From the NCBI RefSeq assembly GCF_036588685.1, contig NC_086373.1, positions 868,001 to 932,000 on the forward strand: a DNA stretch of 64,000 nt, read 5' to 3'. Positions within the stretch are counted from its first letter, which is position 1. Every line of letters begins with the position of its first letter. Below the pieces are notes generated by a model that had not been told where the DNA came from, made no database searches, and saw only the letters and a program-made list of their open reading frames with translations. The translations under genes were made by a program, and so were the position numbers. Origin of the DNA: Mytilus trossulus (lineage: Eukaryota). Below are positions 10,765-34,800 of the stretch, one piece after another.

Positions 10765-10836
10765 TTACGATTTGGACATCTCTTTCAGACTGCTTAAGTA
10801 TGCTTCATGTAATGTATTTATGAAACTAGGATCTGT
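10765..10836 (-). CDS. DCP1: DCP1 last coding exon (TDPSFINTLHEAYLSSLKEMSKS*)
   Basis: ttttttcag acceptor; FxxxLHEAY trimerization motif; TAA stop at 10765-10767. Confidence 0.95.
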   Translation of the reverse strand, partial: TDPSFINTLHEAYLSSLKEMSKS

Positions 10837-13800
10837 CTGAAAAAAAGAAAGAAAAATAAAACGTTAGACAGTCAGAATTTTACAACATAACAAAAATAAA
10901 ACAATTGCAGAATATTAAAATTTTTACAAATGCATGACTGAAAAAGTTGAATCAATGTGCCGATATTTTCCACATATAACACTGCAATGGAATGAGTGAA
11001 AACCATCAAAACTAGAGGTTACCATATTTCTCTCACAAAAAAGTTTTTGGGACTTACATGAACTGGGCTAGAATAAGACTTTTTAGGGGTTTTTCAAGGG
11101 TATATCAAGGTCATACCATTATCTTGTATTTACCTTCATGAGATATACAATTGCCTGCTGTAATTGTTCCTTAGTTAAAGCTGCAACAGGAAGTAGACTA
11201 GTGCTGCCCTCTGCCGATGACCCTGAATCATTACTTCTATTCAGTTTTCCTTGATCATCTGTTATAACGAAAGTATAGAAATTGAAAATCCAAAAATGTA
11301 TATATTGCATGGACAACAGTTTAAACACTTAAATTACAATAAGTTGACCAGGTGAAAAAAAGTTTTCATCATTCACATAAGATGATCTGAAATGTGACAT
11401 GCAAAATAACTTTTATGTGAGAATTTACTATAGATATTATGATGAAGTTAAAAAAATGGAACCATCTGCTAAAAGGAATAGTCCTAAATTTGGCCATGAT
11501 AAAATTGTGTCTTATTCATCATTTTTGGCTTCAATGTATTCTTAAGGTCTGTTTCTAGCCACATAATTTAATAGAACAAGCATTCTGCACAAAACCATCA
11601 GATCGGAACAAAATTCCAACTTGATCTGTAATTTGTCATGGTAAAACAATTCACCAAATATCAATCAATATATTCAAGCCTGAACAAAAACTAGAGAGCC
11701 TGTGTCGCTCACCTTGGTCTATGTGAATATTAAACAAAGGACGCAGATGGATTCATGACATAATTGTGTTTTGGTGATGGTGATGTGTTTGTACATCTTA
11801 ATTTACTGAACATTCTAGCTGCTTACAATTATCTCTATCTATAATTAACTTGGCCCAGTAGTTTCAGAGGAGAAGATTTTTGTAAAAGATTACTAAGATT
11901 TACAAAAAATGGTTAAAACTTGACTTCAAAGGGCAATAACTCCTAAAGGGTTTGAGTTATAAGCCAAAAACTGCATTATACCCCTATGTTCTATTTTTAG
12001 CCGTGGCGGCAATCTTGAATGTTTGACCAGGTCATTGGACAAATTTTTCCTTTGGGCCAGGTGAGCTAAAAATTGGAAAACTGATTTGCCTGATTGACAA
12101 ATGGACAGATCAATCACTACACATACCTGATAATGTTGATGATGGAGATTTTTGTGAGCCTCTGACAAACGCCATCGGTGATAATAAGACATCTGAGTTA
12201 AGTGAGGCGGCTGCTGCTGTTAGCTGCTTTGTTGACGGAACACTGCCCTGTTAATATAGGTATAAAACTTATAAGGTATATTTATTCTGTATATTATAGC
12301 AAGTCTTATCAGAAATTATTGCAAATTTTTATACATGACAAATTGAAAATGAACATACGGTCAAAGCCATATAAGAACTGGCTGATGTGATGGCAGGGGC
12401 ATGACTATGAGATATGAAGACAAACTCTAGACTCAGTAGTCTCTAAACACTAATTTATCCAAGTCCAATTTGTTGTTAGGTTCAATTAACCTTTCTAATT
12501 TCAGTTACTATGATCTAGGACTGAGCTGTTAACAGAAATCGTAGTCCTAATGATAATATACATGACATGACCTAAACATTAACAGAAATCGTAGTCCTAA
12601 TGATAATATACATGACATGACCTAAACATTAACAGAAATCGTAGTCCTAATGATAATATACATGACATGACCTAAACATTAACAGAAATCGTAGTCCTAA
12701 TGATAATATACATGACCATCTACTAGGACTGAGCTGTTGACCTAAACATTAACAGAAATCGTAGTCCGTATGATAATATACATGACATGACCTAAACATT
12801 AACAGAAATCGTAGTCCTAATGATAATATACATGACATGACCTAAACATTAACAGAAATCGTAGTCCTAATGATAATATACATGACCTAAACATTAACAG
12901 AAATCGTAGTCCTAATGATAATATACATGACATGACCTAAACATTAACAGAAATCGTAGTCCTAATGATAATATACATGACCTAAACATTAACAGAAATC
13001 GTAGTCCTAATGATAATATACATGACATGACCTAAACATTAACAGAAATCGTAGTCCTAATGATAATATACATGACCATCTACTAGGACTGAGCTGTTGA
13101 CCTAAACATTAACAGAAATCGTAGTCCTAATGATAATATACATGACCATCTACTAGGACTGAGCTGTTGACCTAAACATTAACAGAAATCGTAGTCCTAA
13201 TGATAATATACATGACCATCTACTAGGACTGAGCTGTTGACCTAAACATTAACAGAAATCGTAGTCCTAATGATAATATACATGACCATCTATATATTTT
13301 GTTCTAATCAAAAGTAATGTAATACATGTAGTCTTCAGTTATCAAAAAAATAATGCAATTAAATTTTTTCAAATATATCAATCAACTCTTTCTACTTGTG
13401 ACCTGACTTTATAGGCATTGATTTTTTTCCATTTTTAAATAAGACTATATATCCAAATTTGGCAGCTATCTAAAATTTTAAAATTTTCTGAAAAAAAAAA
13501 TTCCACAAAGGAGTAGGTCCGGTAAGACCCCTTTTTGGTCCCAAAATATGGCAGTTTTACAAAATTGTTAAAATGTATACTTTTTGTTATTTATTGGACA
13601 GTAGAATGCTTCTGCTACATAAATATGGGCTGTTTTTGACAATACGATGTACATATATTGAGTACTAGCACCATTAAATCATGCTAAATTACTGAAATCT
13701 CCACAATTCTAGCATTTTGGTTAAATTTTAGACGGTTTCCGTGTAAAACGAAAGTGGCCGCATTCGTGTTCATCCAAAATATTTAAATGTAAGTTGTATT

Positions 13801-16800
13801 TGATGATAATACATAACATATATAAAGGTTCAGGATGAACACGGATGCGGCCACTTTCGTTTTTGACAAAAACCATCTGAAAAGTGACATTTTTCAGCAT
13901 ATTTGGTAGATTTTTCATATTTGAGCTTGAATCGGAGCGTTTTTAATGACTAAATAAGTTAAAATCTTTCACATATATTAATTGAATCAAATAAAATAGG
14001 CATTTAAGTGTTTAAAAAGTGGTCAACATCTTCCGTCAGATGAACCTGAAATTTGAGGCCAAAATCGGTCCTTACCGGACCTACTCCTTTATCCTATAAA
14101 AAGTTTTTGTTGCTAGGTGTAAGACCTTTAAATCAAAAATAGATTATCTATAGAAATTATGGTGCATCACAGACCCTCTATCAAAAACATCTTTATTATT
14201 TAACTTACTTTATAAAACAAATTCCTTGAAACATCTGTTTTATTGTTAATACTGTTCAAATATTACATTTGAATCAATATTCTTTTGATATCAATAATAT
14301 ATGTAATTTACAGACAAGTTATATAATTACAAGTACACTAACACTTTTAATAATTATGTAATAACCACTAGATCACAGAAAACAGACTTTCTCTCAAAGG
14401 AGCACAAAGTTATGTAATAATTACTAAATCATAAGAAACAGGTTTCCACTCATATGACAAGAAAAACTGAAAAAATAAATAAAATAAAGATGTTATGATT
14501 CTTTGATCTTGAGTATTTTTTAAATTGATAAGTTCTTAGAAGTATATGATATATACAAAATAATAGCTTTTTTGCTTTTGATTTTGACTTTATCAGCAAG
14601 AATAGCAAGCAGACGTGCAAGGTAGGCCTCATATTCAAACAAATAAAGCCAGTATCAAAACTAAAATGCCATATAAAATGTGGGTCAAAAATTCACACTT
14701 GCAGTGAAAAAAATCAAAAGCTGAACCTACTAAAATGTGTGTAATTTTCAACTCAGCATACTTCAAAACAAACATGGATTTATCTTGAAAGGGTTTATTA
14801 CCTTTTCAGAACTTGATGACTTTTCTAATGCTGCTGGAGTTAACAATTCTGCACTACCCACTCTCCCAACTCCTTGCAGACTACCCTGTAATTGTCTATT
14901 AGCACTTATAGTTTCTGCTGGGGATGCCCTTCTCAAATTATTATCACTTAGTCTATTTATAGTAACAGCATCACCAAATCTTTCTGTCAAATCTTGCGTT
15001 ACATTTTTTGTTCCAAACTGACAACTTGAGTCCGATAAAGAAAACTTTGCAGGTTCACAACTAAAGTCACTTTCTCCTTGAGACAAATCTGATTTTGATT
15101 TAGAAAGAATTGTATATGAGCCTCCATTTGGTAATGATGAAGTGGGCGTTGTGTCCGTGAGAGATATTTCCCCCCGATGTTGTCGTTCTATGTCCTCCAC
15201 CATTGATCCTGAAGACATGATGTGTCTCAATAATGCTGGGACATTCTGTGAGTCCTGTCCCTCTGTAGCCATCTTAGGTGTGTCTGTCACGGACAAAGAT
15301 CTGAATTACAAAACTTTCAAGTCACTTAAAAGAACATTTTACTACTGAATTTCAAAAAGACATAAATCTTATGAAAATAGTATCACTCATTTTGAATAGA
15401 AGTGAGATATGGTATCAAATATAAATCTTTCATATTCATTTCATTGAAAGAATAATATAAAATAATATGCGAAAAATAATTTAAAAGTTTTATATATTCT
15501 CTATATGAATTTCAATGAAATTCATGAAAAGTTAAACCTGACAGTCGTTAGTGTGTCTAACAGATGCCTTGAATTTCCTCATAATTGTTCTTTGCTGAGG
15601 TATCAGTAAATTAAGACAGCACCAGGCTGTTGGTTTTTCTGTTTTTCTATTGTTTTACATTTTGTTATTGCCAGGCCATTTATTGCTTACTGCGCAGTAT
15701 TGGTTTGCTGATTCTGAAAGCCATGTAACGAGTTGTAGTTGTTTTGACTCTTGTCCTTTGGTCTATTATGGATAGTGGTCATATGGTGACCATACACATA
15801 TCTCCTTTTCCTTATTTTTCTATACTAAATGCCTATGAAATGTAGGTGGAGGTTTGCTTGTTTCCACCACTGAAGTTTATATTAAATACCTATGAAATGT
15901 AGGTGGAGGTTTGCTTGTTTCCACCACTGAAGTTTATACTAAATACCTATGAAATGTAGGTGGAGGTTTGCTTGTTTCCACCACTGAAGTTTATATTAAA
16001 TACCTATGAAATGTAGGTGGAGGTTTGCTTGTTTCCACCACTGAAGTTTATACTAAATACCTATGAAATGTAGGTGGAGGTTTGCTTGTTTCCACCACTG
16101 AAGTTTATATTAAATACCTATGAAATGTAGGTGGAGGTTTGCTTGTTTCCACCACTGAAGTTTATATTAAATACCTATGAAATGTAGGTGGAGGTTTGCT
16201 TGTTTCCACCACTGAAGTTTATACTAAATACCTATGAAATGTAGGTGGAGGTTTGCTTGTTTCCACCACTGAAGTTTATACTAAATACCTATGAAATGTA
16301 GGTGGAGGTTTGCTTGTTTCCACCACTGAAGTTTATACTAAATACCTATGAAATGTAGGTGGAGGTTTGCTTGTTTCCACCACTGAAGTTTATACTAAAT
16401 ACCTATGAAATGTAGGTGGAGGTTTGCTTGTTTCCACCACTGATGTTTGACTTCTGATTCTCTGATCCTGGTTCTGTTGCATGCTAGCATTCCTGAACAA
16501 TGTTTCTAATGTCAAAGGCCCTGAAGATGGTCTAGCATTCTGTGTACTATCAACATCTAAAATTACAAAGTGGAAATTATCAAATCTGGTCTAAAAACAA
16601 GCTTTAATAAAAAGACACTTTTAGTGTTTAAGGTTAATATCTATAAATAACTTGCAGGCAAACACAGTATGCTCATTTTTGCACCTGTTCCAAGTCAGGA
16701 GCCTCTGGCCTTTGTTTGTCTTGTATTATTTTTAATTTTAGTTTCTTATTGTATTTCTTAGTGTATAATTTGGAGTTTAATATGGCATTACTTATCACTG

Positions 16801-19800
16801 AACTAGTATATATATTTGTTTAGGTGAAAGCTGAAGGACGCATCCAGGTGCAGGAATTTCTCGCTGCATTGAAGACCTGTTGGTGACCTTCTGCTGTTGT
16901 TTGTTCTATGGTCGGGTTGTTGTCTCATTGACACATTCCCCATTTCCATTCTCAATTTTATCAATTAAGAGTTAAGACATCTGAAAATAACTGATGGAAT
17001 AGCAAGATAGCACTGTAAAAATTAGGTTTATAAATGTTGACACAGATACTAAACGTATTAGTAAACTACTTGTGTCCTTCCCGTGATTGCAGCTGTCAGT
17101 GTTATGTTGACTTAAAAGTAAGGTTATTTATCAGTAAAATACAGAATTTAAAAAAAATACTTTTTGTGTAAATTTTCTATCTGTGTCTTAAAGTTTAGCT
17201 TGTGTCAGAGTTTCATAACAATCCATAAAGGTTAACAAATCTATCATGTTAGAATGTTTTTATGTCATAACAAACCTGAATCCTCTTTTCCTGCTTTAAC
17301 AAGTCTGGGCCGTATGAGATCTGAGGATTTAGTGACTGGTATAAATATATAGGTAACATATGTAGAAACAAACCTGAATCCTCTTTTCCGGCCTTCACAG
17401 GTCTAGGCCGTATGAGATCTGAGGATTTGGTGGCTGAAGCATTAGGATTATCTATGAAAGGCTTTGGATCAGGTTTCTTCTTAGACTGAAACAAGAAGAG
17501 AAAGCAAAATTTTTTTCATGACAAACACATTCACCAAACAATATAATTATGATAATGTGTTTAAGGCCATACATATACCTTTTATTGTTTACTTTTTACA
17601 CATTGTGACTTGGATGGAGAGTTGTCTCATTGGCACTCACACCACATCTTGTTATTTCTTTATACACATTGTTTTTATTGATTAGGTTAATGCTGGCACC
17701 TTTATGGTGTTTTTTTTTTAATTCCAAAATGCAAATTGTTGTCTTGTGTCGCTCACCTTGGTCTATGTTAATATTAAATATTGTACACAGATGGATTCAT
17801 GACAAAATTGTGTTTTGGTGATGGTGATGTGTTTGTTGATCTTACTTTACTAAATATTTTTGCTGCTTTCAATTATCTCTATCTATATAAACAGTAGTTT
17901 CTGTGGAAAATGTTAGTGAAAATCTACAAATTTTGTGAAAATTGTTAAAAATTTACTATGAAGGGCAATTACTCCTTAGGGGGTCAATTGACTATTTTGG
18001 TCATGTTGACTTATTTTAAGTTCTTACTTTGATGTACATTATTGCTGTTTACAGTTTATCTCTATCTATAATAATATTCAAGATAATAACAAAAAAACAG
18101 CAAAATTTCCTCAAAATTACCAATTCAGGGGCAGCAACCTAACAACCAATGATCCATTTCATCTGAAAATTCCAGGGCAGATAGATCTTGACCTGATCAA
18201 CAATTTTACCTCCTGTCAGATTTGCTCTTAATGCTTTGTTTTTTGAGTTATAAGCCAAAAACTGCATTTTACCCCCATATTCTATTTTTAGCCATGGCGG
18301 CCATCTTGGTTGGTTGGCCGAGTTACCGGACACAATTTTTAAACTAGATACCCCAAAGATGATTGTGGCCAAGTTTTAATTAATTTGGCCCAGTAGTTTC
18401 AGAGAAGAAGATTTTTCTAAAAGATTAAGATTTACGAAAAATGATTAAAAATTGACTATAAAGGGCAATAACTCCTACAGTGGTCAACTGACCATTTTGG
18501 TCATGTTGACTTATTTGTAGATCTGACTTTGCTGAACATTTAGTTGTTTACATTTTATCTCTATCTATAATAATATTCAAGATAATAACCAACTAGAGGC
18601 TCTAAAGAGCCTGTGTTGCTCACCTTGGCATATGTGAATTAAAGAAAGGAAGCAGACAGTTCATGACAAGACTGTGTGTTTAGGTGATTGTGATATGTTT
18701 GTACATCTTCCTTTACTGAACATTCTTGCTGCTCACAATTATCTCTATCTATAATGAACTTGTCCGTGTAGTTTCAGTGGAAAATGTAAGTAAAAATTTT
18801 ATGAAAATTGTTAAAAATTGATTATTAAGGACAATAACTTCTTAGGGGGTCAATTGACCATTTTGGTCATTTTGACTTATTTTTTAGTCTTAAATTGCTG
18901 TACATTATTGCTGTTTACAGTTTATATCTATCTATAATAATATTCAAGATAATAACCCAAAACAGCAAAATTTTTCATCTAAATATTTCAGGGCAGATAG
19001 ATCTTGACCAGATACACAATTTTACCCTTTGTCAGATCAGATTTGCTGTAAATGCTTTGGTTTTTGAGTTATAAGCCAAAAACTGCATTTTACCCTTATG
19101 TTCTATTTTTAGCCATGGGGGCCATCTTGGTTGGTTGGCCTGGTCACCGGACACAATTTTTTAACTAGATACCCCAATGATGATTGTGGCAAAGTTTGGT
19201 TAAATTTGGCCCAATAGTTTCAGGAGAAGCTTTTTGTAAAAGTTAACGCCGGACACAGGACGACAGACGCCAAGTGATGAGAAAAGCTCACTTTGCCCTT
19301 TGGGCCAGGTGAGCTAAAAATGTAGGTATGTACAGAATACAAATCAATAATTTCAAGTTTGGTTTAAATTGTATCAGTTGTTATTTTTTTAATTTTGTAA
19401 AGAATATGAGGCAGATGATGGCTGCCAAACAAAGCCAAAAGTTCACATGACTCTTTGAACTTATTAGAGAGCTAATAACATTGTGAAAATTGTCTTCAGG
19501 TTTTTAACGCCATAAAAATTCCTAATCTTACATGCATCCTAAACAACAATTACGTGGCTAATCACTACTCGTTAGATAATTACTGTGTAACAATTAGTGA
19601 ATCACACAAAAACTTTATTTACATTAACTGGCTGTAAAAATACCTCACATGTTGAGAGTTTTAATAGGAAAATATATAGAAAGTCAAAGTATTAATAGTA
19701 TATTCTGTCTATATGACTTAACTCCTCATAGGTATAATCTATGGTTTTGATATGACATTAGAGTACTTTTAATATAACTGAAATTTGGTACTATAATTTT

Positions 19801-22800
19801 TTGTAAACTGTTTAATCATAGTTTCCTTAGCAATATCATTTTTTATAATTACATAGTGAAAGGGGAACAACCTGGTGGTCTTTTAATATGGATGTATGGA
19901 ACCAGGGACTTCCATTTTTAAATAATATTGCAGAAAATGACACTAACTAGACAAATGAATCAAGAATTAGAAAAAAAATTAGGGGGTCCTTTTCTGGCCA
20001 CTGATACATTACAAGTTTTTTCTTGCTGGTACCTGTCAAGAATTACAAACAGGAAATTTATTTCTTATACAACACAACAAATAGAAAATAATATTGGGGC
20101 ACTGAATGAACTGTTTATATATCTTTTCTTTTTTCTAGATGACAAACGAGCAATATACCTAACATTAAGACATGTTTCCTATTAGCTACAAAACATAAAA
20201 TGAATCCTTTATCATACCCTCCTGGTTATATCAAACACATCTTATAACACTTAAACTGACATACATAACAATGGCCAGCCAGTATTGTGGGGTGGAGGTC
20301 TGGACTGGAAATCTTTGGGGAGGAAGATACGAATCAAATCTACTCTAAAATTGTTAGGTTGATTTTCTAGGCGCTTATTTGTAAACCAGTCATATATTTT
20401 TGTCAATAATTGAAAGTAAACAGTCAGTAGAAAACCCCAAAATTGAACTGGATGATCAAATTTGGACACCAACATTTTTTTATCAACAGCCAGTCAATTG
20501 TGCTGAATATAAAGACCTCCTGTATTTATTATATAATTAATTCATTTCATTGAGGTTTTTTTTATTTACTTTTGCAAAAGTTGTCCTCATATTTACATAA
20601 AAGGAAATTGTCCCCCCTTTTCTTGACTCTCTACTAAATTTTATACACATTACATGAAAAAAAAAAAAAAAAGCATTTCCAAAGTGTCTTCTGATTTTCT
20701 ATTTATCCCCCATATCCAGTTGATGTAAAGTAAATGATTAAATTTGGTTTGACAATATTGGTTGGTTATCACTCCATTCCATACAGAATCGCCACCCCAG
20801 ATTTTAGTGCAGCCTTAATAAGATAAAGTCTGTCTGGATAATAAAGAAATCACATGAATGTCAAGGGCTTTGTTCCTGGAACTATTTATATACAGTAATT
20901 ATAACATTAATATTAAAGAATATTTTAGTTAAGCCCTTCAGTATTTAACTATGAAGTGTGTAATGTAATAAAATCATGAATCAAAGGCGAGAATGAAACT
21001 GGTACTAATTACATCTGACATAACTGTTCCTCTACTTGTCATTATATAAACACAGAAACATTTCTCAATGTCAATATGACCTTGAAACTCATGATTCAAT
21101 CCATCACAAGGAAGTAAATAAACTGACGAAAGTAACAATAAGCAGTTATTTAATTTACAGAATCTTATGATAAATATAAATAACAATGATCTGCACATGT
21201 CTGTCTGTTGTTTTGTTTTTATACATGTCAATCATTGCATGTTATTATATCATCAGGCCCGTAGCCAGGAATTTGCAAAGGGGGGTTCGTTTGACTCACA
21301 AACTCGACTTTAACAGTCACAATTCGAACAGAACATCGACTTTAATAGTGCTTATTTTTTTTCAAGGGGGGGGGGTCGTCCGAACCCCCCCCAAACCCCC
21401 CTGGCTACGGGTATGATCATGATCAGATCAAGTACATACAAAAGTGGCCAGTCGAGGATAAGAATTGATAAATACTTGGACTTATCTGTGTTTTCTGTAG
21501 GTTTTACTGTAATATTTACAGACTCATTTGAAACTAACAGTAGGATCAGCAAGGAATAAATGTGTTTAACCCTTGACTTTAACGACCACTTCTACCCTCA
21601 AACAAAGATGGCCTCCATTCTGATGAATATATTGAAATCGTATGTTTTCACTGTGGTGATATAATAGTGCATTAAACTTTTTGTAATTGGAAAAAGAAAT
21701 CATCTCTTATAATATGACCTAGCATCACAGACAGATGGACAGACAAGCAGACAAGACACTACACTTAGTTACTGCTCTCCCTTCAATGTAATCATATTTG
21801 ACAAACCTTGTCATATTCATCTTGAGCTTTAGACAACATCTGCATAATGTTGACCTGACGATTGACCCCAGACATAACGTCATGCATAGTGTCACTTTCA
21901 GAAGCTCGTCTGTTTCTTAATGCTGCTTTTGAGGTATGACTCTCAATTGCCACCTGTAAATAGCTGAAAAAACAAATAGTTTATTGCAAATATTGAACCT
22001 GTTCCAAAATATTAAAGTTATTCAACAATTTAAATAAACATTAAAGTGTTTAGTATGGTATTCATTATCACTTAACTAGTATATTTATTCGTTTAGGGGC
22101 CAGCTGAAGAACACCTCCGGGTGCGGGAATTTCTCGCTGCATGTCGGTGACCATCTGTTGTTGTCTGTTCTATGGGCAGGTTGTTGTCTCTTTTACACAT
22201 TCCCCATTTCCATTCTCAATTTAAAACACTGATATGTCTTGTCTACTTTACTGATTATGATTGAATAGATACCAAGGCCGTAACTAGGCATCTTATTTTA
22301 GTGAGGCAAAATAATTGAGCCGAGCGAAGCGAGGTGAAAATTTTTTTTTGTAGGGTTTGAAATGAATTGTGCAAAATCCTGCATTCTAGGCATTTTTAGA
22401 GAGCTTGATAATATTTTGAATTTGGACACTCTTTATATAATTTTTTCATATTTTAAGACTTTTACTAACACATTATCATCAACACAATGATTAATGTCTT
22501 CTTCATATTCCTTCTCCATCAGCAATTCGGTAGCAGCATCGGTAGTAACAGTTTTTTTTTGCAAAAGGGAATTAAGCTTTCCTGTAAGCACCATCATACA
22601 GTCGCAGTTACAAATTATTTAACTCGTTTTTATGCTGACAAAAAGTAGATAAACTAGGGATAGAATGAGATAATTTACAGATATATGATTCTTTCTATAG
22701 AGAAGTACATGTATATCCAATATGGGTTCAGGGGAAATTGGAATGAAAATTTTTGATGTTTACATGTAGGTCAGTAATTTCCAATGTTTCTGGAAATAGT

Positions 22801-25800
22801 TGGTGGTATTTTAGTTCCAGAATCTATAAATTTAGGGGTTGGGGGTGTCCGATTCAAAAAACCCCGAAAAATAAAGGAATGAAATTCCGAAGTCCCGAAA
22901 AAGTCGTAACAAAATCCTGTGTTACCTGTAAAAGGTTTTACATTTCCTCAAAAATATCAAATTGGAATATGGGATATTCTTTCAATTTTTAAGGTTAAAG
23001 AAACATGGATAAAAACTAACCCATGCATGTTTCATTTTATTTATATTTTATTTATCTGTACAGAGAAAGATTAAAGTTCGTGAAATAAATACGCAGACAG
23101 GACTGTCCCCTTGCAATGCCCAGTACTTGATTTGTTAAAAGTTGGTGAAACGGAGAAATGAATACGCAGACAGGACTGCCCCCTTCCGAAGACCAGTACT
23201 TCATTTGTCAGTCTGCTTATCGATTTTGGATTGTACTAATGAAGTTATATGCAATACTCAGACTCTGTTCACAAAAAAAACTAGTTTACTAAAACTATTC
23301 CTTCTTTACCTTCAGTGTCGCTTTTCCTTTTTCTACAAGATCCTGTTTTTAACTAGAGATCCATGATTATTATCGTTACTAGGTTAATGTAATCGAGAAA
23401 CATCACCCGTTGAGATGCTGAGTTATATCCAGGAAGAATAGTTTAAAAGGAATGATGACAAGTTATAGAAATTAAGGTTGAGACAGTCAACAACAAATGA
23501 CTGTTATATTTGCCTCAAGGGTAGTTACGGCCTTGGATACTGTAAGACTTAGAAATAAAGGTTACACAAGACTTAAAAATAAAGGTTACACAAGTATTAT
23601 AGGACATTAAGTTAAGCTATTTTTTATAGTATATATACATGTATCTGGGAAACAGGTAAAACAGTGAAAACATAACATTGATCAATGAGCCATGAAAATG
23701 GGGTCATGGTCAGATGAACTTTTTGACAGACATGCACACTTAGCAATCATTCCATACACCACATATAATTCCATATGTTATAGATTCTGAGAAAACAGAC
23801 TTAAAACTGCTTGCACCTGTCTCTGTTGTTTATTGATGGGGTTCATAAGTATGTTGTTCATTTTTTTTTAATATAGATTAGACCGTTTGTTTTAGATAAG
23901 TAATTTTTAGGACCCTCATAGCTAGCTGTTCGTTTTGAGCCAAAGCTTTGTGTTGAAGGCCATACATTCACTTATAATGGATAACTTTTACAAATTGTAA
24001 ATTGGATGCAGAGTTGTATCATTGGCATTCATACCAATCTTCTTATATCTCTTAACCATGAAAACCAAATGCTGACTAGAACAACTGTAACCTTGCATTG
24101 TGAACCAGCACATTAGAAATTTTGAGTGTGGTGGTCTAGCTCAAAGTTTATATTTTCTACTTGATGTTAAATGTGTATCCGTCACCTCCATTTTCTTCCC
24201 TTAAAAAGTATCAGTCAGTTTGATGAGACATACACAAATATACATATGAATATATATATGTCATTTCCCATCTATCTGTTATATTTTCACAAATGTTTGA
24301 ATTCAAAAAGCTGATTTGTATTTCAAACAACATGCACCATTCTTTTGTAAAAGATTTTACTGTGGGGATAATCTCAAATATTTCAGAAAATTTCCTTTTT
24401 TTCTTAATGTTACTTTTTTAAACTGGTTGATGTATACTCTTACAAAATATTACGACTGAGTAAATACAATTGTAAATTATATCCCCCTCTGTAACAACAG
24501 TAATCTTTTTTTAATGGGAATATATAAAAGAGCTGCACATGTTTAACATCAAAGAAATGCTTTATAAAACCATGCTATTATCTTTGATATGCTCCTCATT
24601 AGCAGGAGGTAGTTAAAGAGGAAGATTAAATGTCTGGAGTCATTGAAATCAACAGAAGCTAAAAACAGGAAAAATAAAAGTCCATGGTATAAGAACAGAT
24701 GAGAAATTATTCAAGACAAAACACAACCAAGAAAAATAAATTGGCTTTTTTGCATGTTCCCTTTTCTAGAATAAAATTATTGAATATTCCACGTGTTTTT
24801 AAGACTAAAGATAAAAGTAGATAAACCTTTTAAACATGGATACAACCTTGTTTTTAAAACATTATTTGATGAACCCACTAAAGGTTAATATTAGGATACA
24901 TAAGATAATCTATTATATATACCTATTTATCATCTGTCCAATCCTGGAACATTCATCTTTATCATAGAACCATATACCATATATTGCTAAAAACAAAAGT
25001 TAGATATTTATCATAGAACATGCATATACCATATATTTCTAAAAAATAAAAGGGATTATTACCGATATATGTATGATTAGGGTTATAGAACCATATACCA
25101 TATATTGCTATAATTGTGTTAAATAGGCACTCTTTGTCTATAGTTTATTTCCTAAGGCACAAAAAAAAAACTTAATTCAAGGGCAATAATTCTTACAAGA
25201 AGTTAACTGAGAATTCTCCCCTTGCTGATCTTATTGTAAATCTTGTCCTCCTGATCAAGTTAAGCTGTTTGTAGTTTCTCTCTTTGTTCTATAACGTTTG
25301 CCCAATCATAAATAAAGGGTGAAAAATCACTGACTGCTCAAGGCCAAATTATCTAAGTGGAAATGAAATATGCCAATGCTAATTCAACTGCACATCAAAA
25401 TACAGTTGACGTATCATAAGTTGCTTCCCTTAAACTGACCTAACAAAAAGCTTCAACATGTTAACTGCGAAAATTCCAAAGTCAATAAATTTTGACTGAA
25501 GGGCTATGTGATATAATCTCTCTGAAATGTGATTTGCTTATTCTAAAACAAATGCATATCATATATTATTGCCTTACCATTAGTGGTTCCCCTTAAACTG
25601 ACCTAATCACAAACTTACAAACTATGCTAAAGCTGTCTGTCACAAACATACCATCTGACAGAGGTGAGAGGGAAATAATCTCCCTGGATATCATTGATAT
25701 CTCATTAGTGGTTCACCTCAAACTGACCTAATCACAAACTTTAGTTTTTTAACATAGGCAATTTATAAATTGTAAGTTATCAATCCTACTTAAAGTTAAA

Positions 25801-28800
25801 AACATGCAGTTAAACAAATAGTGGTTTAATATATCACTTAATTCTCGATTCCCGTTTTTAAAACTACTAAAATAGATCTTATTTATGAGAAATAAGTATT
25901 TCTAACTACTTCAACAACTCTAATGATGAGGTGCAGAACATATGCTTGAAATGCTTGAATTTTCATTTTAAGCACATGTATTGGTACTCATTTTGACAAT
26001 AAATCAAAAAGTCTGATGATAATTTTTCAAAGTAAGTAATCTAAGAAGCCAAACAATGGTTAATGTAATAACATGCTGTTATCCTAATGCACAAAGATTT
26101 TTGATAAGAGAAAAAAAAAGACAAAATACATCATTGTATGTTATTTTCTTCTTCTTTATCTATTACAATGTCCATACACTGCCAACAAGTGACGTCTGCT
26201 TCGGCAACCAATCTACAACAGCATCATGTGATTTGAAATATGTTCACTTTCCAATCAGTCATTGCTGATAATTAAGGTACTTTGGCAGCCTCATCAAATG
26301 TGCTGTTAATGATTGCTTAATAAAACTAAACATATCACTTTTTGTGCAAGAGTTGTCAATTAAAATGTTATTATTTATTTTTGGTGAAAAACAAACAGAT
26401 TGTTAAACGGAAGAAATCTCTTTCAAATCATCGGCAAAAATGAGCTGCGTACATTCATGTTTTTTGCAGGGCATGTTGGAAATAGATTACGGCAAATGAG
26501 TGTGAGAGGATGATGGAGTCATCTAAGTCTATCTAAACAAAGCCAGTGATCTATTTCTATAATGAGGGGCAAATCACAGAGTCCAGTTGTTGGAATGAAC
26601 TATTTATACTCATTAGAAGATATTGTACTTTTAGGATGTTTTCTTTAATTTTATGATTCTTTGGATTAATTACACCATCAAACAAGAAAAGATAACTTAA
26701 AGATGCATATTCACTTGTAACTGGCAATAAATATTAATGAATACATCCTTTCTCCCCATTAAATCAAATGAATATCCTTAAAATTGAAAACTCCAGGGTT
26801 TAGCAGAATTCACATAAGTTTTATTAATTATAAGATATAAAATTGAGAATGGAAATTGGGAATGTGTCGAAGAGACAACAACCCGACCAAAGAAAAAAAC
26901 AACAGCAGAAGGTCACCAACAGGTCTTCAATGTAGCAAGAAATTCTCGCACCCGAAAGGCGTCCTTCAGCTGGCCCCTAAACAAATATATACTAGTTCAG
27001 TGATAATGAACGCTATACTAATTTCCAAATTGTATAGTTTTATTATTTAGTCATTAAAACTATGGCTTGTTTCTGAAATTTATTGCTTTTATTTAATTAA
27101 GTGACTTGTAATCTAGTTTTCCATTAAAATCAAAAACAAAGACTGAAAAGATCTCTGCAGTTTGTTACAACCTAAAGGCAACTAAAATTCAGTGTATTAT
27201 AGTACAACCTTGGACTTCTGACTGTTAACAATAATAGAAGCTATCATCACCTTCTGTTCCTTAGTTTAGCATATAATCTTTAAAAACATTTACAAAGATG
27301 GCAAACAAGTTTACTCTGAGCAGTTCTCAAATTATATTACCTTTGCTTTCCTGTGTTTCATCTTATATTTAATTTTAGCCTATCCAAGAATTATATTGCA
27401 CTTTGAACAAAGTTTTCTTTAAGATCAAATTTTAAAAGCCTGAAAGACTGCAAAGAAATGAAGCTGACTAAAAATTTACCATACACTAGGATGGATGTGA
27501 TTTCAAAAAACCTTCTTCATGTATAAATACAAACTCTAATCTAAAAGGATTATTTCTCTTCCGAGTCCTTTTATCAAAAGTTTATTATCAGGTTCACTCT
27601 CAATAACAGAAATAACTGTATAGTATGTTACTCATTAAAGAAAATGGGGTTAGTTAGCTACATATTGATGTAGGTAGGTGTCTCTAAGAGATGGGGTTAG
27701 TTAGCTACATATTGATGTAGGTAGGTGTCTCTAAGAGATGGGGTTAGTTAGCTACATATTGATGTAGGTAGGTGTCTCTAAGAGATGGGGTTAGTTAGCT
27801 ACATATTGCTGTAGGTAGGTGTCTCTAAGAGATAGTTAGCTACATATTGCTGTAGGTAGGTGTCTCTAAGAGATAGTTAGCTACATATTGCTGTAGGTAG
27901 GTGTCTCTAAGAGAGTTTTATCACACATACCTTTACTGTTTCTATATAAGACAAATGGATCCTGCAGTTGGAACTCAAGGTCTTTTGTGATTGGTTCTAT
28001 CTGATTGTTCAATCCTAATCTATTCAAGATCATAAAACCATGAGTTGGAGATGCTGACCTGAAAAGATAAAAATAAAATATTTTTAATATTTATCTAAAA
28101 GTCAAACATATAATTCCTTAATTAGTAATGGTTATATTCTAAAATTGTTGACCTACTGCAAAAAGGATCTGAGATTCAGAAAACTATTCACAAAAGGTAA
28201 TGGAACGCTGTTCCAGAGTCATATCTATTTAACTGACACAAATCAGGTCGCAAACTAAAACTGAGTGAAAAACATCAACCATTAAAGGGAAACAACAGAA
28301 CAACAGGACTGCTTCAAAAACAGCTACATAAGTGTTGTAATGCCAGTGACCTTTCAGATATAAACTTAGGTCATGTAAACCAATGTCTTATCTTGGAGAA
28401 ATTTCTTTTTAATAGATTTTATTGCAAACTATACTATTGTATGTACAAATCCAGGGGAACAGTGTATTGAAGTTAAAGAGGCAACTGGTATTTCAAAGCA
28501 GATGGCAAAGACATAATTGTTTGTCTTGCGTAAACCTGATGCTGATTATATAAAGATATATTAGTCATATGCAGTTAAAGATATATTGGTCATATGCATT
28601 TAAAGTATTTGAAATTAAGTGCAATATAAATAAAATCCTGGCACATTCTTTCTAGCTTAAAGCACTTACCAACATGTGAAAGAAGGAGATTTTATTTACA
28701 TTTTGATCTTAAAGTACATACAAATCTTATCAACTTCTATAGCAATAAACAATTAAGTATCTATAGGGAAAAGTGTTGACAATTAACAACTTTCTTTTGT

Positions 28801-31800
28801 AAGATTTCTTTAAGTTTTTTTTCCCTCACTTGTTTGGTTAACCAGACTACAGTGTAGTTCTATTAGTCAGTAATAGGAAAGACAGCTGTACACACACATA
28901 CACGAGTCAGGCAAAGTACAACACATAAATCTATCATTGATCCACAGAAAAAAACAATTTCAGACTTTTTTTAATTAACAAGAAATGAGAAAAAAGTTGT
29001 TTAGTTCATTGTGTCACTGAGAGTAGTTCCTTTACAAAAGTGCAGCTTAAATTAATTTGGTGGCCAAAAAACTATTGTCGATGGTACAAAGCAATGTCGT
29101 AAATCTAATCACTGGAGAACTGTTTAATCTGTGTACTTTGATTTTTTTACTCTTGATAATGCCAACATGAAGGCCAAGGTCACCTGTTTCTTGAATGATT
29201 ACTTATAGAACATGCAATTTAAACCAACATTTAACCAAAGGTCAAGGTAACTAAATTCATGTTTGTTAGATAAAAATAGTTTATGAAGAAACCAACAACT
29301 GCAAAGTCATTTATAAAGAATGATGTGTATAGCTACTTTCTACAAATAGTGAATTTTATATAAAGAAGTAGGTAAGGACCGATTTCAGCCTCAAATTTCA
29401 AGTTCATCTGACGAAAGTTTTTGACCACTTTTTAAACACTTAAGTGCCTATTTCATTTGATTCAATTAGTTATTGTGAAAGATTTTGACTGATTATGCAT
29501 TAAAAAACGACCCGATTCAAGCTCAAATATGAAAAATTTACCAAATATGCCGAAAAATTACACTTTTCGGATGGTTTTTGTCAAAAACAAAAGTGGCCGC
29601 ATCCGTGTTCATCCTCAACCTTTATATATGTTATGTATTATCATCAAATACAACTTACATTTCAATACTATGGATGAACACGAATGCGGCCACATTCGTT
29701 TTACACGGAAACCGTCTAAATTTTAACAAAAACTTGTAAGGGTTCCGCGGAACCCAGTGTCTCGCCCAGTAGTTTCAGAGGAGAAGATTTTTGTAAAAGA
29801 TTACGAAGATTTATGAAAAATGGTTGAAAATTGACTATAAAGGGCAATAACTCCTAAAGGGGTCATTTGACCATTTCAGTCATGTTGACTTATTTGTAAA
29901 TCTTATTTTGCTGAACATTATTGCTGTTTACAGTTTATCTCTATCTATAATATTATTCAAGATAATAACCAAAAACAGCAAAATTTCCTTAAAATGACCA
30001 ATTAAGGGGTAGCAACCCAACAACAAGTTGTTCGATTCATCTGAAATTTTCAGGGCAGATAGATCTTGACCTGATAAACAATTTTACCCCATGTCAGAAT
30101 TGCTCTAAATGCTTTGTTTTTTGAGTTATAAGCCAAAAACTGAATTTTACCCCTATGTTCTATTTTTAGCCATGGCGGCCATCTTGGTTGGTTGACCGGG
30201 TCACCGGACACAATTTTTAAACTAGATACCCCAATGATGATTGTGGCCAAGTTTGGTTTAATTTGGCCTGGTAGTTTCAGAGGAGAAGATTTTTGTAAAA
30301 GTTAACGCAGGACGACGACGACGGACGCAAAGTGATGAGAAAAGCTCACTTGGCCCTTTGGGCCAGGTGAGCTAAAAATAACTAAAAGTTGACATTTTAA
30401 CAATTTTGTAAAACTGCTTTATTCTGGGGCCAAAAAGTGGTCTTACTTGTTTGTGTATTTATTTAATCCTATGAGCTGTATATTTGCTTCAGAATAAAAA
30501 AAAAAAAAAAAAAAAAAAAGAAAAAAAAGAATTATTATTACTGAACCTACTCCTTTGTACAAATTCCTTAAAAATAGTTTTTGAAAATGCTGGCTTATAT
30601 ACAAATATGTTCTTTTTTTTCATCTTTAATGTGTGTTTATATTATGTTAGGGGCATAAAGCTGCATAATTTGTTGATTAATATTAAGTAAGGGAAATAAC
30701 TTGTTAGATTTCAATCTATTACTTTATTCTACAATAATAAAATGTAACATAACTCGATAAGGTAAAATCTTATATTTATAAAAATCAAAAGACGGCAGAT
30801 ATCAACAATTCACTCAAGTTTCATGCAAATTGGTTGAAGCGTTTTTGAGTTATTGTGACATGTTGTGACTATACCATACTTTGTCCGGTAAACGAGCGTA
30901 TAAAAACTTATGATTTTGAAAATGATTAAAAATATAATTATATATATTTTGAGATCAAGTGAACATCAAATCTCCCACCCCTTCACCTCAAAACAATAAA
31001 TAAATTCATATATATTTTCTTTAAATTGAACTGTTAATTCTCTCTTCAGATCTTTCAACTATATATATTATTAATATGGATCGAAACCTACAATAAACAG
31101 AAAACCTTTCCACTCTTTAATTATTGTTATAAACAGTCAGTGTCAATATTTATTTTAAAAAATCTTTAGATATAAGATCTGGAGTTTGTTAATGATGTTT
31201 ATAATAAGTTTAAAAAGCAATGAGTTGTATATGTCCCTACAGTTCCATAATTCTTAACCCTTTATCAAATATGAAGAGTATTGAACCATCTGGTCATTTC
31301 AAATTCTATCATCACAATATCTTAAACATAGTGCTAATGCTAATTTCTATATTTAGACTTTGTAAGACGTTTTTTTCATATTCTTAAATTTTATTAATCT
31401 AATAACATATAAAACAGTAAACATGCTAACTGGGATGGTATCTGGCGGGGAAGAGTTTATATATATATATATATATATCTGGCGGTATCTGGCGGGGAAG
31501 AGTTTATATATATATATATAGAGACTGATGATGTTTCTTTTTTTTTTTTACATGGATCAGGTTTTTTTGGTAAATTCATATTTTTTCTAAATTTCATGAA
31601 GAAAGTCTAAACACTGAGGGTGTGGGTTTCAAAGCCTCTCCCAGCTTCTCCAAACCCATTTCAAGCAAATCAGTCTTCAGAGAAGTATGCATCATGTTTG
31701 TGAAAGCTTAAAACAATATCAAACAAGAATGATCTGATGTCTAAGCATTATCAGTGAAAAGCACTAGTAGATGTTCAGATATGGCTTATTTTGAAATGTT

Positions 31801-34800
31801 TTATCACATGTTATATAACTTGTTACTATCCTAAGTAGTTATTAAATTAGTTTTACATCGTTTATAAACATCCTTTGGGGTTCAATAACATATTCTTTGG
31901 CGATCGTTGTGATCATTCACTGCCAAACAAAAAGCTGATGGTAAATGCTCTATAAAATATTTATACTTAATGTTGTGTCTAATGTACATTGATGAATTAT
32001 AGCTGTTACATTATAAACCTCCTAAGGTAACATGCAAAACAGTCAAATTAGCTGCCATGCTTTTTATGAATGACACTTTAACAAAGTCCTAGCTTTGTAT
32101 TGTTCTTGTAAAAGAAACATTTAGAAAAGAATTTAAAGGAGCATAACTTTAAAAACTGAATTAGATTACTTTTAATCAAATCAATAATCTGCTGTTGTAA
32201 CAAATAGCTAAATTTTCTAATATAATAACAAGTATTGTATTGTCAAGTGAATGGCATCTGTGACGTGGTAAACTAAAGAACAGTTCGAAACTTAAAAATC
32301 TCTAAGTTAATGATGGATAGAGAGAAAAACCTAACCTCTAAGCTAATGATGGATGGAGAGAAATAGTTACAAATCATAGATTTGAAAAGTTTTGTAGTCT
32401 AACCTTCAAAGGAGTTCTTAAATTTTTACAATCAATCAATATAAGAAACAAGATGTGGTATGATTAATTGCCAATAAGACAATTCTCCACCAGACCAGTC
32501 TTTTCCACCCCCTGGGCTCGTCATTTTTCTCCCTCTTTTTAAAATTTTATTTCTATGTTTTGAGTTTTGCTCTATAACTGATAAAAATAATGGGAAAATA
32601 TTTTTTATTTCCTTATGCTTTTTTTTAATTAATTACCTCCTACTGAAACAAAAAGCCAATTTTGTAGTAAAACATAACAAGGTGAACATCTGTGTACTAA
32701 TCAATGTTAATCATGCACAATAAACTAAACGAACTTATAATTAACCTCAGCCAACAAAGTATTCTCTTTACAATGCTAAACTCAAACATATTACAATTCA
32801 TCTTTTTATGATTCAGGAATGAAATAAAAGAAAAAAAAATGTGCACACAGACCCAAACCACCCACCCCTCAAACTCTTAACAGATGATCATCAAAACCAG
32901 AACAGCAATTTGACATATTTTTACTAAAATGTAATTTTGTTGTTGGCTTTTTTTTTATATTTCATCTATAACATTTAATGTTGACTTCCCATTCAATTGC
33001 ATGTAACTTTTATTACATAAATATATAAAATATTTTATAAGAGGGTGGTAAAGGGGGATACTGAACACGGAAACACGTGACATAAAAATCGCAAAAACGT
33101 AGCACGAAAAATAAAAATCGAGAAAAACGATGCACGAGAAATAAAATCGTAAATATAAAGAAAAAAAGTACCAGCAGTTATTACTCAGCCGTTCTTGGAG
33201 ATCATGTAGACATTGTTAGTGGACATAAAGACATTATGGTCACCTTAGCGTATGCTACTTACATCTGATTTGAAAAAAAAATGTATTATGATGGACTTTA
33301 TTACATGTATAGCATACATATACAATAGAAAGTAGAATGGTAACAATATACATCAAATTCTATTACATTACACAAGTTTCAAAAGGTACTATAACTCACT
33401 GATTTTGAGTTACTTTTTAATCGAATGCGGAACAATGCAAGAACGAGAAATTAAGAGCACCGACACGCAACACGGAAAATAAATAAGGGGAAATACGAAG
33501 CACGCACATCGAACCAAACACGAGAAAACGAGAAAGTAAAACACCAAAACATGAAAACACGTGAAATAAAAAGGCCGAAAACATTGCATGAAAATAACCC
33601 TTTACCACCCTCTTATAATGGTTTAACTCTTGTATCTTTATATGGTTTTCCCTGGTACATGTATGAACTTGTTTAAAAGTTTTTACCATTAGTTAAAGGA
33701 ACTGTAAGCCAATTCTTCTTTTGTATCTTTATTCCACTTTTGCAGTTTCCATTTTAAGCAGTTTCATATGTTAAATATTGAAGCTTTTTTAAATTTAAAT
33801 AAACTGTTGACACAGAGAGATGACTTGCCTGAATGTCAATTGATATTAAACTGCTAATGTCAAAATTAAAATAGCAATACTTCATTTAAACAAGGCAAAA
33901 ACTTCAAAGTCATTTATACCATAACTGAAGGAAAGGGGAATGAAATGTGTCAATGCTAATAAACTCACTCACTCATCCTCTTCGTGCCTGTCAGCACATA
34001 AGGCCTCAATGCTAATAAAACTGCATACCAAATATCCTTGAATTATCATAAGTGGTTCCTTAGCTATAACTGACCTAATCTCAATCTTTTCAACTTATTG
34101 TGAACACTGATGGGTCAGTGTAAACAGCATACTTAAGTCTGGCTTTGCTGACCATAGAATTATAAGACATTGCTGACCATAGAATTATAAGACATTGCTG
34201 ACCATAGAATTATTAGACATTGCTGACCATAGAATTATAAGACATTGCTGACCATAGAATTATATGACATTGCTGACCATACAATTATAAGACATTGCTG
34301 ACCATAGAATTATAAGACAATGCTGACCATAGAATTATAAGACAATGCTGACCATAGAATTATAAGACAATGCTGACCATAGAATTATAAGACAATGCTG
34401 ACCATAGAATTATAAGACATTGCTGACCATAGAATTATAAGACATTGCTGACCATAGAATTATACGACATTGCTGACCATAGAATTATACGACATTGCTG
34501 ACCATAGAATTATACGACATTGCTGACCATAGAATTATAAGACATTGCTGACCATAGAATTATAAGACATTGCTGACCATAGAATTATAAGACATTGCTG
34601 ACCATAGAATTATAAGACATTGCTGACCATAGAATTATTAGACATTGCTGACCATAGAATTATAAGACATTGCTGACCATAGAATTATACGACATTGCTG
34701 ACCATAGAATTATACGACATTGCTGACCATAGAATTATACGACATTGCTGACCATAGAATTATACGACATTGCTGACCATAGAATTATAAGACATTGCTG

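What the first reader, a model, noticed from the sequence alone, without database searches (positions are those of the whole stretch)
15820..25110. Recurring pattern: three DCP1 splice junctions independently copied into the flanking intron
Exons 4, 6 and 7 each have an exon/intron boundary duplicated outward into the intron (x3, x2, x11), at apparently different ages judging by divergence, while the coding copy stays intact. Inference: this may be simple survivorship of junction-spanning tandem duplications in a very duplication-prone genome. Alternatively it may be a real route for generating new exons, introns and AS-NMD switches. Clustering in an mRNA-decay gene raises the possibility of autoregulation by unproductive splicing.
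Basis: inference. Interest (0 to 1): 0.7.

Follow-up and report, generated by a model that had tools for sequence, protein, structure and literature searches.

The report
Echoed splice junctions in mussel DCP1
Three exon edges of a mussel mRNA-decapping gene are copied into the neighbouring intron (3, 2 and 11 times), a layout already known from several human genes; the main assembled transcript ignores the copies, so they are likely harmless local DNA duplications rather than a self-regulating switch.

Summary
Observation confirmed. The gene is Mytilus DCP1 (exons 2-11 match the M. trossulus RefSeq protein at 490 of 490 residues). The exon-4 acceptor occurs 3 times, the exon-6 donor twice, and the exon-7 donor 11 times (57-bp minisatellite). 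'Copied outward, coding copy intact' follows from the geometry of any tandem duplication over one junction. The window holds 27-38 local duplications. Three hits on 19 junctions is chance per base (P 0.37-0.77) and a mild excess per event (P 0.002-0.05), in a window picked after the fact. One putative RNA run's contigs fit only the canonical exons 4-7; rare isoforms could not be seen. Most uses of the copies would create premature stops; only inclusion of the exon-6 copy as an exon keeps the frame. Human F7, CBS, IFI6, LMNB2 and PDGF minisatellites and CBS 844ins68 are published precedents, and this scan noted the same pattern in many unrelated genes of other genomes. New here: the exon-6 end is also multiplied in M. 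galloprovincialis and M. coruscus gene models, so it is old or recurrent. Nothing supports DCP1 autoregulation.

The parts
10765..56446 (-). DCP1 gene, exons 2-11 (56446-56406, 28058-27931, 24986-24923, 21963-21807, 17485-17374, 16556-16403, 15300-14802, 12247-12127, 11258-11134, 10836-10765 to the stop)
   Evidence: 490 of 490 residues identical to P0008; AG/GT ends; Pfam PF06058, PF16741
24923..24986 (-). Exon 4 (64 nt), uses the most downstream of three acceptors
   Evidence: run X16 depth 4.41 in bin 24730-25029 against 4.4 expected for the canonical exon and 7.1 if extended
25004..25052 (-). Exon-4 acceptor copy A (13 nt intron end + about 32 nt exon start, 3-nt insertion); use would add 52 nt, shift the frame and give a premature stop
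   Evidence: 42 of 45 identical; pyrimidine fraction 0.75 against 0.65 for the real site
25085..25113 (-). Exon-4 acceptor copy B (6 nt intron end + 23 nt exon start); use would add 121 nt, shift the frame and give a premature stop
   Evidence: 28 of 29 identical; weak tract, 0.55
17374..17485 (-). Exon 6 (112 nt); its last 60 nt are predicted to fold into the strongest DNA hairpin of the 19 junction windows
   Evidence: (z -2.84 as DNA, -1.36 as RNA); X16 depth 9.19 against 9.18 expected for this exon alone
17336..17373 (-). 38-nt GT..AG spacer between the real exon-6 donor and the copy
17261..17338 (-). Copy of the exon-6 end and donor; holds an AG..GT-bounded, frame-preserving 60-nt pseudo-exon (17335-17276); extending exon 6 to its donor would add 98 nt and a premature stop
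   Evidence: 68 of 78 identical; 5 synonymous and 2 non-synonymous differences; DNA contig of run X2 spans 17550-17283
16403..16556 (-). Exon 7 (154 nt); the main RNA contig leaves the stretch at 16403, the first donor
   Evidence: X16 record 17
15821..16448 (-). 57-bp minisatellite x 11 whose first unit spans the exon 7/intron 7 border: 1 real and 9 decoy GT donors plus 1 GC; an in-frame stop three codons behind the junction codon, so any distal donor would give a 262-aa truncated product
14802..15300 (-). Exon 8 (499 nt), acceptor partner of the exon-7 donors

Best explanation
These are three local duplications, each lying across one DCP1 splice junction, that likely arose by ordinary slippage or unequal exchange and likely stay silent because the spliceosome takes the site next to the intact exon. 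Shown: the copies; the intact reading frame; 24-35 other duplications found by the same scan elsewhere in the window; canonical exon ends in the main contigs of one putative RNA run; a stop codon for every donor or acceptor shift translated. Follows from geometry: the extra copies always end up on the intron side and the coding copy stays whole. Inferred: first-donor preference as in human F7 and last-acceptor preference as in CBS 844ins68; removal of rare leaky products by nonsense-mediated decay; expansion of the exon-7 unit as a VNTR; and, for exon 6, an old or repeatedly renewed duplication, possibly favoured by a predicted DNA hairpin in the exon end.
For: 27-38 local duplication loci in the window, only 3 on junctions; per-base null P 0.37-0.77. 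X16 contig of 1161 nt fits 16558-16403 and leaves at the first donor; depth in the exon-6 and exon-4 bins equals the canonical exon alone; exon 5 is covered exactly. 10 of 13 Mytilus-named proteins that cover the exon-6 end, including all 6 RefSeq ones, have one copy. The repeated pieces in the other 3 and the window copy carry residue changes in a motif that is unchanged in the RefSeq proteins and in P0004/P0005, as expected for drifting pseudo-exons. Copy donors score no better than the real ones. Precedents: PMC1557585 (abstract, Introduction, Discussion), PMC2630376 (passages).
Against: Per-event nulls expect only 0.24-0.83 junction hits, so 3 is a nominal excess (P 0.002-0.05), and GC bias does not remove it (0.55 against 0.58). 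The exon-6 end is multiplied in gene models of two other species, more persistence than a one-off neutral event suggests. 5 of 7 differences in the exon-6 copy are synonymous (P 0.11-0.13 under a neutral copy), and its exonic arm (53 of 60) is closer than its intronic arm (about 21 of 37 columns). The RNA evidence is contigs of one run, which drop rare variants. Only 15 of 2034 joints were printed, all in interspersed repeats, and a residue of depth in the exon-7 bin (X16 13.5 against 11.6 expected) is unexplained. In human CBS and IFI6 the nearest pseudo-donors ARE used.
Confidence: 0.75

Rival explanations
1. Exon ends are real hot spots or long-term refuges for local duplication in Mytilus, and the exon-6 copy is an exon being born: an AG..GT-bounded, frame-preserving unit that is renewed from the constrained exon and could be included once the intervening intron is long enough.
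For: Per-event P 0.002-0.05. The same exon end is repeated in models of M. galloprovincialis (P0018) and M. coruscus (P0021, P0051), in M. coruscus from about the same start. 5 of 7 AG options in the window copy keep the frame, and the 45- and 15-nt options match pieces of P0018. Predicted hairpin z -2.84. Synonymous excess 5:2.
Against: The three repeated proteins are GenBank gene models with other oddities (wrong N-terminus or unrelated tail); none of 6 RefSeq proteins has the insert. The 38-nt spacer is far shorter than the gene's shortest intron (297 nt). The copies carry changes in a fixed motif. No RNA contig depth falls on the copy in X16. The hairpin is 1 of 19 tests and weaker as RNA. 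The window was chosen after the fact, and exon-anchored copies decay more slowly, so they stay visible longer (doubling the expectation gives P 0.014-0.23).
Confidence: 0.17
2. The decoy sites form a regulated unproductive-splicing (AS-NMD) switch by which DCP1 limits its own level.
For: Every donor or acceptor shift translated gives a premature stop well upstream of later junctions; DCP1 acts downstream in NMD (PMC7764535 passage).
Against: Premature stops are the default result of such shifts. [quoted passage not shown] Stabilising the stop-carrying RNA would not restore full-length protein (inference). The copies are diverging, not conserved. Main contigs are canonical. 0 of 6 spliced-looking DCP1 loci from distant taxa has a duplication over an exon end. 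Human precedents lie in unrelated genes.
Confidence: 0.04
3. The copies are assembly artefacts of this one sequence.
For: Other Mytilus gene models near these places look disturbed, and arrays are hard to assemble; the number 11 may be wrong.
Against: The copies differ from the exon by substitutions and indels. A DNA contig from another study spans the exon-6 copy (X2 record 27). Depth in the bin holding the 57-mer is far above single-copy in both DNA runs.
Confidence: 0.03

Closest known systems
Human F7 intron 7 37-bp VNTR (Borensztajn et al. 2006, PMC1557585; abstract, Introduction and Discussion read), which also lists CBS intron 13, IFI6 (6-16) intron 2, LMNB2 and PDGF intron 4
   Same: First unit spans the exon/intron border, so identical donors are repeated into the intron; the most upstream one is the real one.
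   Different: The unit here is mostly exonic (46 of 57 nt against 4 of 37). Invertebrate. Three junctions of one gene are affected. Silence of the pseudo-donors is shown here only at the level of one run's main contig, not by mutagenesis.
Human CBS 844ins68 (PMC2630376, passages read)
   Same: Duplication of an intron-end/exon-start junction; the downstream site is used and normal mRNA results. Matches the exon-4 acceptor case.
   Different: One 68-bp recent copy in CBS; here two shorter, diverged copies with spacers that barely align.
Intron and exon gain by tandem duplication (PMC2891723, abstract read; PMC4974935, search listing with start of abstract only)
   Same: A local duplication holding AG and GT signals can in principle make a new intron-exon pair; the exon-6 copy has that shape.
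   Different: No new intron or exon is shown to be spliced here; the spacer is 38 nt.
AS-NMD autoregulation of splicing factors by poison exons or alternative sites (PMC7764535, passages read)
   Same: Use of the decoy sites would put a premature stop upstream of later junctions.
   Different: No conservation, no detected isoform, no known binding of the product to its own pre-mRNA.

Membership tests
F7-type junction-spanning minisatellite | Tandem array whose first unit spans an exon-intron border | tested here: met
   57 bp x 11.0, 46 exon + 11 intron
F7-type junction-spanning minisatellite | Pseudo-donors identical to the authentic donor | tested here: met
   9 further GT donors with the same 9-mer, last unit GC
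F7-type junction-spanning minisatellite | Only or mainly the most upstream donor is used | tested here: inconclusive
   Main X16 contig leaves at 16403; rare use is invisible in contigs and a small depth residue is unexplained
F7-type junction-spanning minisatellite | Copy number varies between individuals | tested here: inconclusive
   Bin depth 762 (X1) and 444 (X2) against 43 and 4.7 at single-copy places hints at longer arrays; the tool warns that this is no copy number
CBS 844ins68-type duplicated acceptor | Intron end plus exon start duplicated, AG kept in the copies | tested here: met
   Two copies, 42 of 45 and 28 of 29 identical, both with AG
CBS 844ins68-type duplicated acceptor | Downstream acceptor used, normal mRNA | tested here: inconclusive
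   X16 bin depth 4.41 against 4.4 canonical and 7.1 extended; indirect, one run, presence of the copies in that animal unknown
New exon/intron by tandem duplication | Copy bounded by AG and GT and frame-preserving | tested here: met
   60-nt piece 17335-17276 gives an open 511-aa reading from exon 2 on
New exon/intron by tandem duplication | Included in transcripts | tested here: inconclusive
   No depth on the copy in X16, 0 of 6 RefSeq proteins; 3 GenBank models include copies but are predictions
New exon/intron by tandem duplication | Purifying selection on the copy's coding sequence | tested here: inconclusive
   5 synonymous: 2 non-synonymous, P 0.11-0.13; copies alter an otherwise fixed motif
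AS-NMD autoregulatory switch | Alternative event introduces a premature stop upstream of a later junction | tested here: met
   Conceptual translation only
AS-NMD autoregulatory switch | The unproductive isoform exists and rises when NMD is blocked | not testable with these tools
   Only contigs were served, no raw reads
AS-NMD autoregulatory switch | Element strongly conserved across species | tested here: inconclusive
   No orthologous Mytilus DNA available; at protein level the exon-6 copies differ between species; no junction duplication in 6 distant loci
AS-NMD autoregulatory switch | [quoted passage not shown] | not testable with these tools
   Defining feature from PMC7764535 passages; not known for DCP1 (own knowledge)

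The most novel reading that the evidence does not exclude
The hairpin-forming end of DCP1 exon 6 is a standing source of AG..GT-bounded, frame-preserving pseudo-exons that has been kept or re-copied in at least three Mytilus species. It would be one visible case of a genome-wide excess of junction-seeded duplications, through which mussel exons keep spawning candidate cassette exons and micro-exons that can be watched across species.
Probability: 0.15. Interest if true: 0.55.

Novelty: new member of a known kind. Interest (0 to 1): 0.2.

Why it matters
As it stands it is a tidy invertebrate example of decoy splice sites on both the donor and the acceptor side within one gene: a natural test bed for first-donor/last-acceptor choice, and a place where gene predictors go wrong (3 public Mytilus models string the copies into DCP1). 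It would matter more if the per-event excess held genome-wide or if the exon-6 copy were included, because exon birth by partial duplication could then be followed across closely related species. Autoregulation of a decapping factor by splicing would be surprising, but nothing here points to it.

Tried and rejected
No whole genome is held for this window, so the genome-wide test could not be run. GC bias as the cause of the per-event excess: founding units of 29 non-junction loci are richer in GC than background (0.339 against 0.305, P 0.004), but weighting by it leaves the expectation at 0.55 against 0.58; rejected. Templated insertion as the source of the spacers: 8 local comparisons, best shuffle fraction 0.03; not convincing. 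Hairpins as a common cause: only the exon-6 donor window stands out (z -2.84); exon-7 donor -0.6, exon-4 acceptor -0.06; rejected as a general cause. P0014, which ends just behind the exon-7 donor, is not diagnostic of the array, because the sequence behind the last unit also has a stop at that codon. Joints and loose ends were swamped by interspersed repeats (15 of 2034 joints and 24 of 5902 loose ends printed, none at a DCP1 splice site). Run X12 covered the exons too thinly to use. Run X1 has contigs with 0 differences from the window and may not be independent. The stretch laid (16330-25300) left out exon 3, exon 8 and 9 of the 11 array units, so exon 3-4 and 7-8 joints were not seen directly. 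The metagenome scan gave 13 loci, none close enough to be Mytilus. The literature search for DCP1 + Mytilus + bivalve gave 1 paper (PMC4793324); its passages list the transcript and give no DCP1 gene structure (supplements not opened). Searches listed no genome-wide test of junction-spanning repeats in molluscs (search listings only); PMC3152781 has no such passage. Look-ups of earlier findings by place and by sequence were empty.
Full report
Gene and organism. The finding lies in a minus-strand DCP1 gene. A search with exon 8 returned Mytilus DCP1 proteins. Ten exons joined by coordinates translate to 490 of 490 residues of P0008 (XP_063429260.1, M. trossulus), from residue 41 to the stop, with AG/GT at all 9 introns. 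Pfam DCP1 and mRNA_decap_C both pass their cut-offs. The first 40 residues were not found in the window, so exon 1 lies outside it. No whole genome is held.

Observation. All three duplications are there. Exon 4: two upstream copies of the acceptor, 42 of 45 and 28 of 29 identical, both with AG. Exon 6: one downstream copy of the last 63 exon bases and 15 intron bases, 68 of 78 identical, period 98; it forms a 60-nt AG..GT piece behind a 38-nt spacer. Exon 7: a 57-bp unit of 46 exon and 11 intron bases, 11 times, with 10 GT donors and a last GC. The three differ in build (perfect array, decayed pair, two short pieces), and each build also occurs away from junctions in the same window, for example 23082-23208, 25427-25741, 27644-27914 and 12515-13292. 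'Outward, with the coding copy intact' is not a finding of its own: a tandem copy over a donor leaves the first donor on the whole exon, and a tandem copy over an acceptor leaves the last acceptor on it. Unit identity cannot date a homogenising array, so 'different ages' holds only loosely.

Chance. An ungapped self-scan found 27-38 local duplication loci depending on threshold, against 0-3 segments in shuffled sequence. Under a per-base null, 11-20% of positions lie inside a duplicated arm, and 3 hits among 19 junctions have P 0.37-0.77 (circular shifts 0.48-0.58); at the strictest threshold only 2 of 19 are hit. That null is too generous, because long arrays grew after they were seeded. Under a per-event null the expectation is 0.24-0.83 and P is 0.002-0.05; on the array-collapsed window it is 0.58, P 0.021, and GC weighting does not change it. 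Two biases work against taking this at face value. A copy whose partner is held by selection stays recognisable longer (doubling the expectation gives P 0.014-0.23). And the window was picked after the fact: at P 0.02 about 400 of 20,000 windows would show three hits, for a genome of 1.3 Gb (size recalled). The verdict is a mild, unresolved excess, not background for certain and nothing special to DCP1.

What use of the copies would do. All 10 distal exon-7 sites give the same stop three codons behind the junction codon (262 aa). Extension of exon 6 to the second donor adds 98 nt and stops at 254 aa. The exon-4 acceptors add 52 or 121 nt and stop at 121 or 144 aa. All lie upstream of several later junctions and would be NMD substrates (established rule, not tested here). 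Only the exon-6 copy taken as a separate exon keeps the frame: 5 of 7 AG options are in frame (60, 45, 18, 15, 9 nt, behind introns of 38-89 nt), against a shortest real intron of 297 nt. Copy donors score the same as the real ones; acceptor copy A has a slightly better pyrimidine tract than the real site, copy B a worse one.

Transcripts and other individuals. 24 runs were listed, all as contigs, none as raw reads; 4 were laid on 16330-25300. In X16 (RNA by the tool's guess) a 1161-nt contig fits 16558-16403 and leaves at the first donor, and another covers exon 5 exactly. Mean depth in the exon-6 bin (9.19) and the exon-4 bin (4.41) equals what the canonical exons alone give (9.18 and 4.4; 7.1 if exon 4 were extended). 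A residue in the exon-7 bin (13.5 against 11.6) is unexplained; one of like size occurs in the exon-5 bin (12.8 against 10.5). Contigs drop rare variants, whether the X16 animal carries the copies is unknown, and the joints table was filled by interspersed repeats (15 of 2034 shown). So dominant canonical splicing is supported in one run and rare use is untested. X12 was too thin. In DNA run X2, from another study, one contig spans 17550-17283 with 14 differences and 1 gap, so the exon-6 duplication is not private to this assembly. Depth in the bin with the 57-mer is 762 (X1) and 444 (X2), while 16515, 16578, 16635 and 16646 are single-copy (43 and 4.7). This hints at arrays longer than 11 units, but the tool warns that summed depth is no copy number, and X1 may not be independent of the window.

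Other species. Of 86 fetched proteins, 3 hold an internal exact repeat of 6 or more residues, all at the exon-6 end: P0018 (VDI47607.1, M. galloprovincialis, partial) and P0021/P0051 (CAC5416860.1 and CAC5416859.1, M. coruscus). A gene model must be read from genomic DNA, so those assemblies hold several copies of this exon end (inference). In M. coruscus the pieces start at about the same residue as the window copy, and the 15- and 5-residue pieces of P0018 match the 45- and 15-nt options of the window copy. These are predictions with other oddities. The other 10 of 13 Mytilus-named proteins covering this place, including all 6 RefSeq ones, have one copy. The repeated pieces carry residue changes in a motif that is unchanged in the RefSeq proteins and in the more distant P0004 and P0005, which argues for drifting pseudo-exons. 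Against that, 5 of the 7 differences in the window copy are synonymous (P 0.11-0.13 if the copy is neutral and the exon constrained). The exon-6 donor window has the strongest predicted DNA hairpin of the 19 junction windows (z -2.84; -1.36 as RNA), a possible cause of recurrence and borderline after 19 tests. None of 6 spliced-looking DCP1 loci from distant taxa has a duplication over an exon end; the other 7 loci have no introns in the match. This is a weak control.

Mechanism. Most likely: slippage or unequal exchange copies 30-100 bp at a rate that is high throughout this genome region. When the tract crosses a junction the extra site falls on the intron side, the spliceosome keeps the site next to the intact exon, leaks are removed by NMD, and the exon-7 unit went on to expand. 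The copies, the background of similar events and the canonical main contigs are shown. The mutational route, the site-choice rule in mussel and the NMD step are inferred.

Known cases. PMC1557585 (abstract, Introduction, Discussion) describes the human F7 intron-7 VNTR, where only the most upstream of 5-9 identical donors is used. It lists LMNB2 and PDGF (authentic site only) and CBS and IFI6 (the two nearest pseudo-sites also used), so leaky use is possible. PMC2630376 (passages) describes CBS 844ins68, a duplicated intron 7/exon 8 junction that yields normal mRNA. PMC2891723 (abstract) reports intron gain by tandem duplication. PMC7764535 (passages) defines AS-NMD autoregulation as an RNA-binding protein acting on its own pre-mRNA and names DCP1 only as a downstream decay factor. 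I found no paper on this locus and no genome-wide test in molluscs (listings only). Earlier notes of this scan describe the same layout in LIG1, DCTN1, MRPS18C, MOB3, UBR2, FDPS, CUL2, EMILIN1 and others. They are unchecked and I use them only as a lead that the pattern is not tied to RNA-decay genes; the F7 precedent was found before them.

Verdict. Real, a new member of a known kind, most likely silent (0.75). The part worth following is the exon-6 end, multiplied in three Mytilus species, together with the unresolved per-event excess (0.15-0.17). Autoregulation is unlikely (0.04). Interest 0.2.

Noticed in passing
window 27644-27914: 47-bp array (6 copies) that begins 17 nt behind the exon-3 donor: next to a junction but not across it.
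   Followed up: partly
window 28059-56405: Intron 2 is 28.3 kb and holds several locus-specific arrays (25 bp x 41, 37 bp x 13, 34 bp x 10, 44 bp x 56, 55 bp x 27).
   Followed up: no
window 12515-13292: Complex array in intron 8 built from 45-, 50- and 70-bp variants of one unit.
   Followed up: no
window about 16690-16960, 17530-19330, 22030-22330: Very high-copy interspersed repeats (summed contig depth up to 2.6 million); related pieces recur at about 26830-27010 and 29800-30360.
   Followed up: no
window 50436-52000: About 1.5-kb element with clusters of a short motif at the left end and its reverse complement at the right end, like the subterminal repeats of a non-autonomous DNA transposon.
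   Followed up: no
protein P0003 (CAG2221588.1, M. edulis), residues about 152-160: The model departs from all other Mytilus DCP1 exactly where the exon-6 duplication starts and has a change in the fixed motif; it may have jumped into a decayed copy, which would make a fourth species.
   Followed up: partly
proteins P0014 and P0009 (VDH89140.1, VDH89139.1), P0015 and P0018 (VDI47608.1, VDI47607.1): In one M. galloprovincialis annotation DCP1 is broken into pieces at intron 6 and intron 7, the two introns with donor copies here.
   Followed up: partly
L008:6658-6897: In this distant DCP1 locus the exons matching 4 and 5 are one continuous reading frame (no intron 4); L001-L007 have no introns in the match.
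   Followed up: no
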